Positions 36,987 through 51,900 of a DNA stretch of 64,000 bases are shown in pieces; position 1 is the first letter of the stretch, and every line of letters begins with the position of its first letter. The DNA is taken from NCBI GenBank assembly GCA_965153285.1, contig OZ229110.1; one strand, 5' to 3'. Made by a program: the position numbers. The stretch is from Podarcis tiliguerta (taxonomy: Eukaryota).

Positions 36987-39900
36987 ACAGTACTGTGAAT
37001 ACCTTCAATGAATCAGCAACTGCCTAATGTAGGATTATTGATATAACTATGTTGCAGTAAATAGAAATAACTACATTCATTTTCAGTGCTTTCTTCATGC
37101 CTTTGCTTCCCACCTTCTTATCAGTTTAGGTATTGGCCTCATGAGCATACTTTGTCATGGTGCCCACCATTAGTTTAATGGCATTGACAGCAATACAGAT
37201 CCATGGTGGAATGTCTGGTCCTCAACTTTTTCTTTCGGTTCCCCTTAGCAATGTTCTGTGATTATTACAATGATGAACGTGAATGTGAATGGCACTACAA
37301 GCCTTGTGGAGCCCCATGCATGAAGACATGCAGAAACCCAAGCGGGAGATGCCATTATCAGTTGCCTGGCTTGGAAGGTAAGAAGACTTCTAGTGACTTA
37401 TAGGGTCATTAAGCCAGCTATGCACAACATTTAATAGGTTTCAAATTTGGGGGAGTGTTGTTGGTTGTCTAAACCAATAGAAAATAGGTCACCTTGTGTT
37501 CTCATCTTTTTGGGTTTCAAATGGCTTGCAGTCAGGCTTAAATTATATGAGCCAGCCTAGATGTGATCAAGGGCTCATTCAACACACCTGCAAATGACCA
37601 CAACCTTTTTCCTTTCATGGAAACTTGGAAGCATGTGGAAAAGCTATTGGTGGAAAGATCCCAGCACTGGACCAGATGACAAATATTAATTAAAATACCC
37701 CTCCCCCAAAGTAAATTAAATGGAATTGCTTTTTGACAGATTTTATATATTGCTCTTATCTCCCTCACACCTTCCTTTGTCTCAGGCTGCTACCCACACT
37801 GTCCAGCAGACAGGCCTTATTTCAATGAGGATGAGATGACGTGTGTTGATGTGTGTGGCTGTTATGATGATCAGGGTAACTATCATCCACTAGGAAAAAC
37901 ATTTGACTCAAGAAAGACATGTCAGGCATGGTAAGTATGTATAGCTTGACAACACTAAGAGAAATGATCAATTACAGTAGCACCTCCAGTTACGTTACTC
38001 TCGGTAACGTAAACTTCAGGTTGTGAAAGCGACAAATCTTTTCATCGGGTAGCGAAAACCTTGGGATCCGGCTGGACCTCCAGAATGGATCCCGTTCGCA
38101 ACCGGAGGTACTACTGTACTCTCTGTATACCCCTTGAGATGTTATTCTTGTTGATTCTAGAATGAATCTTGTTGCTCTGATTGCATCCTTTATCATATAC
38201 TCATAATATACCATTAGAATGAAGTATGTTGAGAATCTAATTGATTGAAGTAATATTTTAAATTGGATTTTACATATACAATAAATCCCAAAAACCAGAA
38301 CAAGAAAATTATTAGAATGTTCCTATTTGCAATTCAGTGTGAAAGTGGTAGATGAAATCACAGACAAGAAGTAGTACGGTAAATGAATGCTTAAGGGGGT
38401 AGGGGAAAAACTATGAAATTAACTTCCAGACCAAACTAAGTAGAAAATAAATAGCAGAATGCAGTTTTATGATTCCTGGGTCTCACATTTTCCTATCTTT
38501 TTTTTACAGTACATGCACCAGTAAAGGCATAGAGTGTAACTATGATGCCAAAGGTAAGCTGTATGTAGTGAGTTATGAATGGCACCTTATATCATATTTC
38601 ATATGATGTTACCTGACCATTCTTACTCTGTCAATTTTCAGCATGCTACTGCTATTATGAAGGAAAGACATATATCTACAAGGATGTCATCTACAACACC
38701 ACAGATGGCTTGGGCTGGTGCATGATTGCAACGTGTGATGTCAATGGAACAATCCACAGAGAACTATTCAGATGTGCTGGGACTACCACAATACCACCTA
38801 CAGTTTCAACTACAACAACAAGTGAAGCAGGTATTTCAGTCCAAATCTTTTGCTTCAACTCTTTCCAAACTTCGCTGAGAGAAGTTCCATTGAACACAGT
38901 GAATAATACTTCTGAGTAGACATGCACTACACCAAAGAGCAGAGAAACAGTTCCTACCACTGCAGTAGTAGGACAAATAGCACCACATCTTGGGTCAGCT
39001 GTTAAAATCAGAGGTGCCATACAACACCACACAAAGGGACAAATTCAACTAAATACTTCTGTTAATAGAGCCAGCACAAATGAGTCCCACTAGTGCAACA
39101 GGGCCTGTACTAATGGAGCAATCTCCTTAGCGCTACTTAGGTATTTGAGCCAGCTCCATAACATAATTTTTTACCAATTATCTCAACCAAACTAGATGTA
39201 AATGCAACATGATCAAAAGCAAGCATTTATAAACAAAGTATGTAAGAAAATGAAGAGATAATGAAAAACTTTACAAATCTTCTATAACATAGGAAAACAT
39301 CCCCAAATACACCATATTCATATTTTTTGTTACATGTTGCATATATTATTTTAAAATAAAAATATACAAGATGGAAATCAACATGAAGTTAAGTTGAAGG
39401 TTCAATCGGCGCAAGCATGGCAGCTCCCCAGATGGAATGATCCACTTCCACCAATGTGCTCTTCTGGTTGCCCCCGCCCCCCAATCCCTGCCTCATCTAC
39501 AGAAAAAACTTGGGAGAGAGGTTACATGGGAGAAGGAGAGAGGAGGCAGAGAACAGATAGGGAGATTTATGACCTAAATAAACCGGATTAAAATAACCAG
39601 TGATGTTGTTTCTTACAGAATCCACTACAGCGCAAACAACAGTATGTGTCCATAGAACATGTGAATGGACAGAATGGTATGATGTCAGCTACCCTAAATT
39701 TGGACGAGAGAATGGGGATTATGAAACACCAGAGAAAATAAGAGATAGAGGAAACAAAGTATGTAAAATGCCAGATGAAGTGGAATGCAGAGCTCAGCGC
39801 TTTCCTAATGAAAGCATAGAAACCCTCGGACAAAAGGTACAATGTTCCAAGTCTAGCGGTTTGATATGCAACAATAAGGATCAGACACCACCAATCTGCC

Positions 39901-48900: not shown

Positions 48901-51900
48901 CTATGCTAGAAAGTACCTCTACTATGTGCCTCCCAAAGTGTAACTGGACCTCCTGGTATGATTTGCACCGTCCTACCAGCAGTCCAGATGATGGCGATAT
49001 AGAGAATTTTGAGACCATCCGAAAAGCTGGAGGAAATATTTGCAAACATCCACAAGACATTGAATGCAGAGCTGAGAATCACCCTGATGTCAGCCTGTAT
49101 TTGCTTGGTCAGGAAGTGCAATGTAACCTCCTTGTTGGACTTTTGTGCGAAAATTCAAAGCAAACAGACAAGATGTGTTATAACTACCAGGTTAGATACC
49201 AGTGCTGTGAATACAAGCCCTGCCATCCTAGCACAACACCACTGAGCACACCTGCTGCTTCTACCACAGAAAAACCTGGCAGCACGGCTGGCAAAAGCAC
49301 AACTCCAGAATCCTCCACGGGTTCTACGCCACCTCCCATTGTATTTACCACCACCCAAAGCTCCACTCTTGTTTCCACAACTCCAGGAGTAACCACAGGA
49401 AAGCCAACAACCACAGAAACACCAGGCAGCACTGCTGGCAAGAGCACAACTCCAGCATCCTCCACAACTTCTACACCACCTCCCATTGTAGTCACTACCA
49501 CCCAAAGCACCACCCTTGTTTCCACCACTCCTGAAATTACAACAGGAAAGCCCATGACCACCATCCCTTTCTCAACCCCTGCCTCCGTCAGCACACCTTC
49601 CATCACTTCTGGAGTGGCTTCCAGCGTTTCAACCACATCTCTTCCATCTACCCATGTTTCCAAACCTGTGTCGACGATATCCACTACTGGGATTACTGTA
49701 GAAACAGCAACTGTCCCTACCAGAGTGCCATTTTCCACTAAGCCTTTGGTCGTTGTTACAACAGGTAATTACAGAATGAATCTGCATATCCTAGTATGAA
49801 AATCTTGTTACCTTTGGTAAATATTCTAACAATTAAATTTATTACATGTTACTCAATTACAGGTGTCATGCCAAATGTTAGCAAATTCTTTCATATTAAT
49901 GGGGGCTAGGTGATCTTATTTCATATACCACCCTTTTCAAAAATTGGTATCCCAATTATGAAACCTAGTGTCTATCAGCTAGCAACTTATCAAAAATGTT
50001 TGCCTAGATCTCAGTGTGCTTTTTTCAAAGAAGTTTTCAATGCTATTACAAGTAGTAGATAGCTCTCTCGCTAGATATTTGAAATTTTATTAACAGCACC
50101 TTTGGACTGGAGGGGTGTGTTTCTTGATACTGGGAGGAATATAGCTGGATTCCCCTGTTTCTTGATAGTATGGTAGGTGTATAATAAGAACAGCAAGTAA
50201 GCAAAGTATTGATCTGATCCATTAAACTGGTTTTTGTAGTACAATTATCAAGTTAAATTCTCCAGCCCTAAAGATACATGTAAGTCCGGTTGAGCTCAGT
50301 TGGAATTCTGAATTGTTATGCTTCAGTTGGTGCTTTGGAAGTGTACACTGAAATCTTAAGTATCTACAGTGTTTAGCATCCATTTCCAGCAGTATGTCTT
50401 CAAGCAGTACGTAACAACTGTTATACATTTATTTCTTTTCTATTGTGTCTTCAGCAGCAACAAGTACTTCCATACCTTCTACAACAGGAACTACAACAGT
50501 CACTTTGAGCAGAACAACTCCATGTTTCTGCCGTGTGCCCGGATTTAGTAAGGGCTTGTTTTCTCCTGGTGAGTTTCTCTTAATGAATTTGAAAAGCAGC
50601 TGAAGCAATGTTTTCATTCACATATTGCTTTGATTGTACATATGCTCAACATACGTCCTTCCTTATACCTACATCATGATTGTGCACCACTCTCCACAGG
50701 GGAGTCTACTTTGGTGCTCTGCTGTATAGTTTGAGGAGGAGTAGAAACCTTTTTACTTACTTTTTACATTTACATTTAAATCATTTTATTAATCCTTCTT
50801 TATCTGGGTTTTTTGTTTGTTTTTTGCAAGTTTGGGGCTGATATTTTCAATGCTTTATTGAATTTATGTATCTGTGTTTTACTCTACACTGCTTTACACG
50901 TTTTAACAACCTAGGGAGCAAAAGTATTAGCTGAGATGAATTCTGTAATTCTCTCATGCCATACATTCTTTGAACAGTATTGAACCACAGAGATGTCAAT
51001 AGATCCATCTCTCACCTATCCCCTATCCCCTTTTACATATGTACATCTACCACTATCTGCCAGCCATTACTTTTAACAGGTGGCCAACATGTCCTTTTAC
51101 TCCCTAGGATTGTGAGTCACAAGTTATACTTGTATATGATTTACTGGCTAAGGACCAACTGGGGAAAAGGCCTCGGCTGAACCTCTTGCTGATCTCCCAT
51201 GGTGGTGTGGGGTTGGAGCTTGCCCACTACAAATTACACAATCCAATGCATGCTTTCTCAGACTTGCTGCTGAGAGTTGCACTGCATGTCAGTAGACAAA
51301 TTCATCTGAATTTTATTTGCATTTTAGAACGTTATGACATGTTTTGTTTTATAATTTTCGTACATGGTGCTTTATGATAAATTCCCTCCTTTTTTAAAAT
51401 AGGGGAAGTAATATACAATAGAACTGATAGTTCCGGATGCAGTTTTTATGCAGTTTGCAACAGAAGCTGTGAAATTGAGGTGTTCCAGGGACCATGTCCT
51501 TCAACAACTCCTTCCCACCCATCAACACCATCAGTTACAACTGCAGGAACCCAGCCTTCTCCGTCACCCACTACTGTTGTTCCATCAACCAGAGTATACA
51601 CTACTGCAGCTGTATCAACCCCCACAACTCCTGTAACAGGTTGCCCTGATATTGATCCACCAAGAAAGGTAATTAGCATTGTTTTCATACATACATTGGG
51701 GATAGCTTTTGCTAGCTGATGAGAGGCTGTAGCCCTAAACATCAAAAGGGCTCCATGTTGGGGAAAGCTGTTGGCTACCAAATGCCTCTCTCACTCCATT
51801 TTCACCCCTCTTAAAAACCATTAAATGAATCCTCTCTTGGTGAACGAGGTGTCTATGTTGAAAAGAAAATCCTGACTACCCCTAGGACTTTTGCCCACAA

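What the first reader, a model, noticed from the sequence alone, without database searches (positions are those of the whole stretch)
39619..49764. Mucin core built from ten near-identical CysD+PTS cassettes (12 CysD in total)
Seen: unique CysD1 (39645-39944), ten 885-bp units each with a 10-Cys CysD plus ~195 aa of PTS, then one diverged unit (CysD at 48927-49223). The folded domain itself is tandemly amplified at a fixed 295-aa spacing. Known: human MUC5B has 7 CysD and MUC5AC 9; CysD+PTS super-repeats exist in MUC5B, and CysDs are implicated in non-covalent mucin cross-linking. Inference: a regularly spaced CysD ladder whose copy number could tune mucus mesh properties, probably a polymorphic VNTR.
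Basis: partly seen in the sequence, partly recalled or inferred. Interest (0 to 1): 0.7.

Follow-up and report, generated by a model that had tools for sequence, protein, structure and literature searches.

The report
Lizard mucin's repeated CysD-PTS core
The big central exon of a lizard gel-forming mucin gene encodes twelve small cysteine-rich domains separated by sugar-bearing linkers, ten of them as near-identical 885-base copies; this is real, but related lizards, birds, turtles and fish have the same layout, so it is ordinary.

Summary
Window 39619-49764 is one exon of 10,146 nt with an AG acceptor and a GT donor. It encodes 12 CysD domains, each with 10 Cys and a WxxW motif. Ten of them sit in 885-bp CysD+PTS units that are at least 99.3% identical over their first 840 nt.

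The exon is the core of a MUC5-type gel-forming mucin on the + strand. Exon 1 is at 8008 and the 3' end lies past the window. The closest protein is the Podarcis muralis "mucin-5B-like" model.

P. muralis has the same 295-aa cassette (10 CysD) and Zootoca vivipara a 294-aa one (7 CysD). Geckos, Elgaria, Anolis, songbirds, turtles and fishes have similar ladders, with up to 24 CysD among the named homologues and 32 matched stretches in the representative library.

Cassettes are 97-100% identical within a species but 95-97% (Podarcis) and 88-90% (Zootoca) between species. CysD1 and the last CysD group by position, while the middle ones group by lineage. That pattern is concerted evolution by unequal exchange.

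Copy-number polymorphism and tuning of mucus mesh size are plausible from the literature but were not tested here. Verdict: a new member of a known kind, of low to moderate interest.

The parts
8008..8091 (+). Exon 1 of the mucin gene. It starts with Met followed by a hydrophobic stretch; reading this as a signal peptide is an inference.
   Evidence: tblastn of P0001 aa 1-28, 89% identity; translation.
10513..38829 (+). About 27 N-terminal coding exons (D1-D2-D'-D3 region), co-linear with P. muralis mucin-5B-like aa 25-1308. They were mapped exon by exon and not joined.
   Evidence: tblastn HSPs, mostly 89-100% identical (three weaker HSPs 65-77%). Pfam on single exons: VWD 12410-12697, C8 16897-17130, TIL 29048-29302, VWD 34951-35196, C8 36655-36822.
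23102..23351 (.). Run of 250 N. It lies between the exon at 21713-21823 and the exon at 23527-23616, so it appears to be intronic. It was left unfilled.
39619..49764 (+). Large central exon: 10,146 nt, 3382 codons, 12 CysD, 1182 Ser+Thr.
   Evidence: AG/GT boundaries, open frame, composition. The Zootoca model uses the same donor.
39645..39947 (+). CysD1, single copy. It is orthologous to CysD1 of the other squamate models.
   Evidence: Pfam E 4.5e-27. The first CysDs of all 11 squamate rows, the window's included, form one clade, SH-aLRT 100.
39948..40076 (+). First PTS linker. Its last ~58 nt (from about 40019) already match the tail of the repeat unit.
   Evidence: Flank comparison; repeat family starting at 40019.
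40077..48926 (+). Ten tandem 885-bp cassettes. Each is a 306-nt CysD (102 aa, 10 Cys, WTSW) plus a 579-nt PTS linker (193 aa). Unit starts are 40077 + 885 x n, n = 0-9.
40419..40717 (+). 147-bp x2 sub-repeat (49 aa x2) inside the PTS linker of unit 1. The same sub-repeat is in every unit, 885 nt apart, and in the last diverged unit at 49263-49552.
   Evidence: Tandem Repeats Finder, 11 arrays with 86-89% matches.
48927..49226 (+). Last CysD (the 12th). It is 50% identical to the repeated CysD and orthologous to the last CysD of Podarcis and Zootoca.
   Evidence: Pfam E 7.3e-26; identities; clade of 3 rows with support 99.
49227..49764 (+). Terminal PTS tail of the exon. Its first 240 nt lie within a 300-nt window that is 80% identical in DNA to the repeat unit; the rest is unique.
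50436..63211 (+). At least 12 downstream coding exons (D4 region and beyond), co-linear with P0001 aa ~4114-4765. The last ~223 aa of the P. muralis model fall past the window end.
   Evidence: tblastn. Pfam VWD 53264-53515 and C8 55840-56016. Small exon at ~50450-50576.

Best explanation
The region is the single large central exon of a secreted, gel-forming MUC5-type mucin of a lacertid lizard. It is the counterpart of the gene annotated "mucin-5B-like" in Podarcis muralis and Zootoca vivipara.

**Shown here.** The exon encodes 12 compact CysD domains strung at a fixed 295-aa pitch on Ser/Thr/Pro-rich linkers. Ten domains sit in 885-bp units that are nearly identical to one another. The units resemble each other more within a species than between species. 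The two edge domains (CysD1 and the last CysD) are conserved by position.

**Inferred for the DNA.** Unequal crossing-over and gene conversion between in-register units keep the array homogeneous (concerted evolution). The same process adds or removes whole cassettes, most recently in two-unit (1770-bp) blocks.

**Inferred for the protein, from work on human and mouse mucins.** The linkers become dense O-glycan bottle-brushes that act as spacers. The CysDs, each locked by five internal disulfides, are bare patches that make weak reversible contacts between mucin polymers. Their number and spacing would then set cross-link valency and mesh size.
For: **Gene identity**
- N-terminal and C-terminal exons are co-linear with P0001 (P. 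muralis mucin-5B-like), most HSPs at 89-100% identity.
- Single exons hit VWD, C8 and TIL.
- The best named hits are lacertid mucin-5B-like proteins, at 94% and 87% identity.

**CysD identity**
- Pfam E 4e-23 to 4.5e-27.
- PDB sequence hits are MUC5AC CysD (8ov0, 1.3e-24), MUC5B (8oer, 4.9e-22) and MUC2 CysD1 (6tm6).
- An AlphaFold2 model with pLDDT 72.3 has solved CysDs as all 8 of its Foldseek hits at E <= 0.001. The best is 8ov0 with TM 0.83.

**Homogenisation**
- Cassette identity is 97-100% within the window. Within P. muralis it is 97-100% for 7 of 8 cassettes. The four 294-aa cassettes of Zootoca are 100% identical.
- Between species it is 95-97% (window vs P. muralis) and 88.5-90% (window vs Zootoca).
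- In a tree of 126 CysDs from the window and 10 squamate models, CysD1 forms one clade (support 100). The lacertid last CysD forms one clade (99). The middle CysDs cluster by species or lineage: 22 label changes against a shuffled mean of 88.
- Edge copies are the diverged ones.
- Units two apart are more alike than neighbours: mean 3.1 versus 4.8 differences, permutation p 0.018.

**Coding constraint**
- The frame is open for 3382 codons.
- 5 of 13 variable sites are nonsynonymous, against 74% expected. Binomial P is 0.008, with transition bias ignored.

**Function, from papers**
- The fold, two Ca2+ sites and the idea that PTS length sets CysD reach come from PMC7599080 (passages).
- A 12-copy poly-CYS protein tightened mucus mesh (PMC6861317, abstract).
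Against: - No expression data were available for this gene.
- No reads were available, so ten units may not be the true number in the animal.
- The counts for other species come from gene models of assemblies that may collapse such arrays. The 12/10/7 difference is therefore weak evidence of real copy-number change.
- CysD self-association is disputed in print. Perez-Vilar 2004 reported monomers; I know this only as cited in PMC3195396. MUC5AC CysD1 was not seen docked in filaments (PMC11912381).
- Continuing homogenisation cannot be told apart from recent re-expansion from one unit using protein data alone.
- One-to-one orthology with mammalian MUC5B is not shown. In the N-terminal tree, mammalian MUC5AC and MUC5B group together, apart from both sauropsid clades.
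Confidence: 0.85

Rival explanations
1. The unit count, and perhaps the identical unit pairs, is an assembly artefact. The true array may be longer, shorter or differently ordered, because repeats of 885 bp at >99% identity are easy to collapse or expand.
For: Units 2 and 4, and units 5 and 7, are identical over 885 nt. The related models differ in count (10 and 7) and contain odd units of 388 aa and 344 aa. Both are typical of hard-to-assemble loci.
Against: The array has no N. The frame stays open and in register for all ten units. There are 13 unit-specific variant sites arranged in a consistent haplotype-like pattern. The same unit length is found independently in two other species. None of this proves the count.
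Confidence: 0.15
2. The near-identity reflects a very recent, separate burst of cassette duplication in each lineage from a single surviving unit, not continuing gene conversion or unequal exchange across an old array.
For: Within-species identity is extreme: 99.3-100% in DNA here and 100% in protein among Zootoca's four 294-aa cassettes. The lag-2 pattern fits a few recent block duplications.
Against: The unit length (295/295/294 aa), the sub-repeat and the diverged edge units are shared by three lacertids. Comparable arrays exist in all 7 non-lacertid squamate models that have a regular array. An array therefore existed before these lineages split. Contraction and re-expansion is itself one form of concerted evolution, so this rival differs in tempo rather than in kind.
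Confidence: 0.25
3. The array is not translated as read. It could be a decaying or silent gene copy, or be shortened by splicing inside the exon.
For: The P. muralis model uses a different donor at the exon's end than the Zootoca model.
Against: The frame is open for 3382 codons with canonical AG/GT boundaries. All flanking exons are intact and co-linear with the P. muralis and Zootoca models. There is a deficit of nonsynonymous variants. All 120 Cys are kept.
Confidence: 0.04

Closest known systems
Podarcis muralis mucin-5B-like (public model; P0001, 4988 aa)
   Same: Exons are co-linear and most HSPs are 89-100% identical. It has the same 295-aa CysD+PTS cassette, the same 49-aa sub-repeat, a unique CysD1 and a diverged last CysD.
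   Different: It has 10 CysD rather than 12. One unit of 388 aa carries an internal 93-aa PTS duplication. Cassettes are 95-97% identical to the window's. The first spacing is 155 aa against 144 aa. The model uses an earlier donor at the exon end.
Zootoca vivipara mucin-5B-like (public model; P0002, 4146 aa)
   Same: It has the same gene and a 294-aa cassette, and uses the same exon donor as 49764.
   Different: It has 7 CysD. Its four 294-aa cassettes are 100% identical to each other but only 88.5-90% identical to the window's.
Regular CysD ladders in other vertebrate MUC5-type models
   Same: These are runs of near-identical, equal-length CysD+PTS cassettes in one protein. Examples are Gekko kuhli (15 CysD at 250 aa), Euleptes (15 at 247), Elgaria (15 at 236), Paroedura (13 at 250), Eublepharis (13 at 248), Anolis sagrei (10 at 266), Zonotrichia MUC5AC (24 at 173), Hypomesus (21 at 167), Pygocentrus (16 at 211) and turtles (about 12 at 230).
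   Different: Unit length is specific to each lineage. The lacertid unit (295 aa) is the longest among the 17 models with runs of 5 or more. Sequences of the repeated CysD are only 42-55% identical between squamate families.
Human MUC5B super-repeat and MUC5AC CysD classes
   Same: CysD and PTS alternate within one large central exon, and several CysDs are nearly identical (PMC9712336, passages). Cys-domain copy number varies among human haplotypes (PMC11344006, passages). For the MUC5B super-repeat I saw only the title of Desseyn 1997 in a reference list.
   Different: The human linkers differ in length and are themselves built from short repeats (8 aa in MUC5AC, about 29 aa in MUC5B) whose number varies. 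There are typically 9 and 7 CysD. The lizard linker is a fixed 193-aa sequence with one 49-aa x2 sub-repeat.
Engineered poly-CYS protein rCYSx12
   Same: It is a molecule of 12 tandem mucin CYS domains. Adding it to mucus lowered permeability and mesh size (PMC6861317, abstract and section headings). This is an experimental analogue of a high-valency CysD string.
   Different: It is an artificial protein delivered alongside mucins, not part of a mucin. From what I read, its domains are not separated by long glycosylated linkers.

Membership tests
CysD domain (Pfam PF13330, Mucin2_WxxW) | Profile match above the curated cut-off | tested here: met
   Scores are 95.0, 82.3 and 91.1 bits against a cut-off of 22.4, for CysD1, the unit CysD and the last CysD. 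A CysD profile built here finds 12 domains in the exon.
CysD domain (Pfam PF13330, Mucin2_WxxW) | About 100 residues with ten conserved cysteines and a WxxW motif | tested here: met
   Domains are 100-102 aa. There are 120 Cys in 12 domains and none outside them. There are 12 WxxW motifs: WTEW once and WTSW eleven times. Ten Cys, both Trp and 21 other positions are invariant among the 4 window CysDs aligned, which cover the three CysD types.
CysD domain (Pfam PF13330, Mucin2_WxxW) | CysD fold (small beta-sandwich) as in solved structures | tested here: met
   The model has moderate confidence, pLDDT 72.3 from a 4-row alignment. All 8 Foldseek hits at E <= 0.001 are CysDs: 8ov0 TM 0.83, 8oer_I 0.77, 6tm6 0.69.
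CysD domain (Pfam PF13330, Mucin2_WxxW) | Five intradomain disulfides and bound Ca2+ | not testable with these tools
   These are known for MUC2 CysD (PMC7599080 and PMC3195396, passages). Here they are only inferred from the conserved Cys.
Gel-forming mucin of the MUC2/MUC5 type | N-terminal VWD-C8-TIL assemblies before the PTS region | tested here: met
   Single exons hit VWD (x2 above cut-off, 1 below), C8 (x2) and TIL. About 28 exons are co-linear with P0001 aa 1-1308. Not every domain was scanned, and the exons were not joined.
Gel-forming mucin of the MUC2/MUC5 type | Large single exon coding PTS sequence with interspersed CysD | tested here: met
   Exon 39619-49764. The linkers are 48% Ser+Thr and 14.5% Pro.
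Gel-forming mucin of the MUC2/MUC5 type | Fourth VWD assembly, then VWC and cystine-knot at the C-terminus | tested here: inconclusive
   VWD (53264-53515) and C8 (55840-56016) are found downstream. The part matching P0001 aa 4766-4988 lies beyond the window, so the C-terminal end could not be seen.
MUC5B orthologue (one-to-one with mammalian MUC5B) | Groups with MUC5B rather than MUC5AC in a tree | tested here: inconclusive
   The tree used the N-terminal regions of 46 of the 116 named proteins. P0001 stood in for the window, because the window's exons were not joined. The lacertid gene sits in a sauropsid clade of 14 rows (support 99), separate from the sauropsid "MUC5AC" clade. Mammalian MUC5AC and MUC5B group together (99). 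PMC4948705 notes the same pattern (passage).
MUC5B orthologue (one-to-one with mammalian MUC5B) | Position in the cluster: downstream of MUC5AC, tail to tail with TOLLIP | not testable with these tools
   The criterion is from PMC4948705 (passage). No mucin-like match lies in window 1-8000 or beyond 63211, and the gene's 3' end is outside the window.
Protein-coding VNTR | Head-to-tail units of high identity inside a coding exon | tested here: met
   Ten 885-bp units, 99.3-100% identical over 840 nt, all in frame.
Protein-coding VNTR | Unit number varies among individuals | not testable with these tools
   No reads or second haplotype were available. Only the models of three species differ, with 12, 10 and 7 CysD.

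The most novel reading that the evidence does not exclude
The cassette may act as a molecular ruler kept by selection, and the amplified CysD may be a fast-evolving self-matching contact.

**Pitch is conserved while sequence turns over.**
- The pitch is 295/295/294 aa in three lacertids.
- It is 250/250/248/247 aa in four gecko genera. Their linkers (148/148/148/145 aa) align with 0-3 gap columns although they are only 55-73% identical.
- The single-copy linker after CysD1 is not conserved in the same species: the CysD1-to-CysD2 spacing is 144/155/155 aa in lacertids and 357/132/131/158 aa in geckos.

**The repeated CysD diverges faster than single-copy parts.** Between squamate families it is 42-55% identical, against 61-75% for single-copy CysD1 and 68-81% for the N-terminal region (leaving out one truncated model).

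One reading is that homogenisation keeps all copies mutually compatible for CysD-CysD contact while letting the contact surface drift or adapt between lineages.
Probability: 0.25. Interest if true: 0.55.

Novelty: new member of a known kind. Interest (0 to 1): 0.27.

Why it matters
On its own this is a correct anatomy of a lizard mucin gene whose close counterparts are already in public protein sets.

Its modest value is as a fully resolved example of a folded-domain-plus-linker unit amplified in a coding exon. The array contains no N and carries unit-specific variants.

The comparison it prompted shows that regular, species-homogenised CysD ladders are common in MUC5-type models of non-mammals. 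Their pitch is conserved within clades. The irregular human MUC5AC and MUC5B layout may therefore not be typical across vertebrates.

If pitch and copy number do set mucus mesh, these natural series (125 to 295 aa pitch, up to 24 CysD in the named set) offer a ready comparative test.

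Tried and rejected
- **CysD self-binding prediction.** Two copies of the unit CysD were folded without an alignment. The result was no verdict, with score 0.00 against a mark of 0.32. This is no evidence either way.
- **Tandem Repeats Finder.** It cannot report the 885-bp period because its longest period is 500. It showed only the 147-bp sub-repeat. The 885-bp period came from a motif scan and the repeat finder.
- **Rfam on the whole window.** 0 matches.
- **Pfam on 7 long non-exon open frames.** These were at 3189, 18419(-), 36569(-), 51905(-), 57037, 59291 and 60768. 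There were 0 families, so no transposon or second gene was found.
- **Neighbouring mucin gene.** tblastn of the 116 named homologues, plus the window's own exon translation, gave 16,751 HSPs. None lay below 8000, none beyond 63211 and none on the minus strand.
- **Minus-strand open frames.** The 166-257-codon frames on the minus strand inside the array repeat with the units. I take them as by-products of the skewed composition (GC 0.56, GC skew -0.25 to -0.30).
- **Human or contaminant origin.** Rejected: the best matches are lacertid.
- **Literature.** "mucin" + "concerted evolution" + "CysD" gave 0 papers. Two broader searches gave nothing on squamate CysD arrays beyond PMC4948705.

Full report
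**1.

- In 36-54 kb, one frame on the + strand is open for 3400 codons (39597..49799). No other frame exceeds 257 codons.
- The frame is bounded by an AG at 39617-39618 and a GT at 49765-49766.
- The motif that opens the repeated domain occurs ten times, at 40077 + 885 x n.
- Over the first 840 nt the ten units differ by 0-6 nt, so they are 99.3-100% identical. Units 2 and 4 are identical over the full 885 nt, as are units 5 and 7. Unit 10 diverges only in its last ~42 nt.
- The repeat finder reports the same ten copies plus an eleventh at 65%.
- The homogenised tract runs from about 40019 to about 48900.
- GC is 0.56 in the array and 0.34-0.47 in the rest of the window outside 40-50 kb.
- The only N run, 23102-23351, lies far upstream. 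I did not fill it.

**2. What the units encode**

- Pfam PF13330 (Mucin2_WxxW) matches CysD1 (E 4.5e-27), the unit domain (4e-23) and the last domain (7.3e-26).
- All 120 cysteines of the exon lie in these domains, ten each, and each domain has one WxxW.
- The linker is 193 aa, with 48% Ser+Thr and 14.5% Pro. It contains a 49-aa x2 sub-repeat, which is also present in the diverged last unit.
- The unit CysD matches solved CysDs by sequence: MUC5AC 8ov0 (E 1.3e-24), MUC5B 8oer (4.9e-22) and MUC2 6tm6.
- A moderate-confidence model (pLDDT 72.3) has solved CysDs as all 8 of its Foldseek hits at E <= 0.001. The best is TM 0.83 to 8ov0.

**3. The gene around the exon**

- The search with the exon scored 8000 candidates and found 233 proteins at E <= 0.001; the best 120 were listed. 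The top two are "mucin-5B-like" of Podarcis muralis (P0001, 94% identity) and Zootoca vivipara (P0002, 87%). The window is therefore lacertid, not human.
- I mapped the gene exon by exon with tblastn of these proteins. Exon 1 (Met) is at 8008. About 27 further exons run to 38829. Then comes the central exon, followed by at least 12 exons to 63211.
- The last ~223 aa of the P. muralis model fall past the window end.
- Single exons hit VWD, C8 and TIL upstream, and VWD and C8 downstream.
Nothing in this report rests on a joined sequence.
- No mucin-like match lies in 1-8000 or on the minus strand.

**4. Which mucin**

- I built a tree of the region before CysD1 for 46 of the 116 named proteins, chosen for taxonomic spread. 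P0001 stood in for the window.
- The lacertid gene falls in a sauropsid clade of 14 rows (support 99), distinct from the sauropsid "MUC5AC" clade.
- Mammalian MUC5AC and MUC5B group with each other (support 99).
- Lang et al. 2016 report the same pattern (PMC4948705, passage).
- I therefore call it a MUC5-type gel-forming mucin. One-to-one orthology with mammalian MUC5B is not shown, and the synteny test (TOLLIP) is out of reach in this window.

**5. Is the architecture unusual? No**

- I counted CysDs in 116 named homologues. The four unnamed "metaclust" hits were left out before any count.
- P. muralis has 10 CysD with spacing 155, 295 x5, 388, 295 x2. Zootoca has 7 with spacing 155, 294 x4, 344.
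- Other regular ladders:

| Model | CysD | Pitch (aa) |
|---|---|---|
| Gekko kuhli | 15 | 250 |
| Euleptes | 15 | 247 |
| Elgaria | 15 | 236 |
| Paroedura | 13 | 250 |
| Eublepharis | 13 | 248 |
| Anolis sagrei | 10 | 266 |
| Zonotrichia MUC5AC | 24 | 173 |
| Melospiza | 22 | 173 |
| Pogoniulus | 22 | 169 |
| Hypomesus | 21 | 167 |
| Pygocentrus | 16 | 211 |
| Turtles | about 12 | about 230 |

- 30 of 116 have 12 or more CysD, and the median is 8.
- Runs of near-identical (>= 95%) equal-length cassettes occur in 17 of 116 (5 or more) and 7 of 116 (10 or more). The window's run is 10.
- This set is biased. It was retrieved with a CysD-rich query and holds only proteins of 1870-5950 aa.
- A search of 1.84 billion cluster representatives with one CysD gave 614 proteins at E <= 0.001. 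Of the 150 listed, 17 have 12 or more matched stretches, and the maximum is 32.

**6. How the array is kept uniform**

- Whole-cassette identity is 97-100% within the window. Within P. muralis it is 97-100% for 7 of 8 cassettes; the eighth carries an internal 93-aa PTS duplication. The four 294-aa cassettes of Zootoca are 100% identical.
- Between species it is 95-97% (window vs P. muralis) and 88.5-90% (window vs Zootoca).
- In a tree of 126 CysDs (67 distinct) from the window and 10 squamate models, all 11 first CysDs form one clade (support 100). The three lacertid last CysDs form one clade (99). The middle CysDs cluster by species or lineage.
- This is the signature of concerted evolution. 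The edges of the array escape homogenisation.
- Units two apart are more alike than neighbours: mean 3.1 versus 4.8 differences, permutation p 0.018. This points to recent two-unit exchanges.
- Of 13 variable sites, 5 are nonsynonymous against 74% expected by random change. P is 0.008, with transition bias ignored.

**7. Function (inferred from papers, not tested here)**

- CysD has a beta-sandwich fold with two Ca2+ sites and five disulfides. PTS length was proposed to set the reach of a CysD (PMC7599080, passages).
- MUC2 CysD formed non-covalent dimers and was proposed to set pore size. The same paper disputes an earlier report of monomers and of C-mannosylation (PMC3195396, passages).
- A 12-domain poly-CYS protein lowered mucus permeability and mesh size (PMC6861317, abstract).
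- Human haplotypes differ in cys-domain copy number (PMC11344006, passages).
- Human MUC5AC typically has nine CysD and MUC5B seven (PMC11912381, passages). Several of them are nearly identical, but the linkers are irregular (PMC9712336, passages).

**8. A bolder reading that the data allow**

- Pitch is conserved within clades while sequence turns over. Lacertid linkers are 193/193/192 aa. Gecko linkers are 148/148/148/145 aa, with 0-3 gap columns at 55-73% identity.
- The single-copy spacing after CysD1 varies in the same species: 144/155/155 aa and 357/132/131/158 aa.
- Between squamate families the repeated CysD is 42-55% identical. CysD1 is 61-75% identical and the N-terminal region 68-81%, leaving out one truncated model.
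- This could mean selection on spacing together with fast co-evolution of a self-matching contact. It could equally be relaxed constraint. I found no paper on this, and supplements were closed.

**9. Limits**

- There were no reads, transcripts or DNA from other lacertids.
- Counts in other species come from gene models that may be collapsed.
- The tree methods were the quick setting.
- The structure model rests on four window sequences.

**10. Verdict**

Copy-number polymorphism and mesh tuning were not tested. The finding is a new member of a known kind, and interest is low to moderate.

Noticed in passing
window 23102-23351: The only N run (250 N) lies between the exon at 21713-21823 and the exon at 23527-23616. 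The mapped P0001 residues are continuous across it (aa 441-477, then 476-505), so no exon seems to be lost. It was left unfilled.
   Followed up: partly
window 44406 and 46176: In units 5 and 7 a C-to-A change turns Thr into Asn and creates an NGT N-glycosylation sequon in the PTS linker. The other eight units lack it.
   Followed up: no
window 32485-32835: The tblastn match to P0001 and P0002 aa 864-947 spans 117 columns at 69-72% identity. That is about 33 extra residues relative to both models. It may be two exons with a short in-frame intron or a real insertion.
   Followed up: no
window 49700-49764 and 50436-50600: The P. muralis model ends the central exon earlier (after "...VSTISTT") than the Zootoca model, which uses the donor at 49764. 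Both then continue in a small exon at about 50450-50576. This may be an annotation difference or alternative donor use.
   Followed up: partly
protein P0055 (named mucin-5B, Eubalaena glacialis), not in the window: In the N-terminal tree this record sits with Eschrichtius MUC5AC inside the mammalian MUC5AC clade (support 100), so its name looks wrong.
   Followed up: no
window 39951-49768, minus strand: Open frames of 166-257 codons recur on the minus strand once or twice per unit. I take them as by-products of the strongly skewed composition. They were not searched.
   Followed up: no
window 5605-5645, 36949-36984, 55413-55469, 59835-59876: Microsatellites outside the coding exons: (AAC)13.7, (TG)18, (ATA)19.7 and (GT)21.
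   Followed up: no
window 1-8000: There is no match to any of the 116 mucin homologues and no Rfam family, and Pfam found nothing in its one long open frame scanned, 3189-3605. The upstream neighbour of the gene is not in the window.
   Followed up: partly
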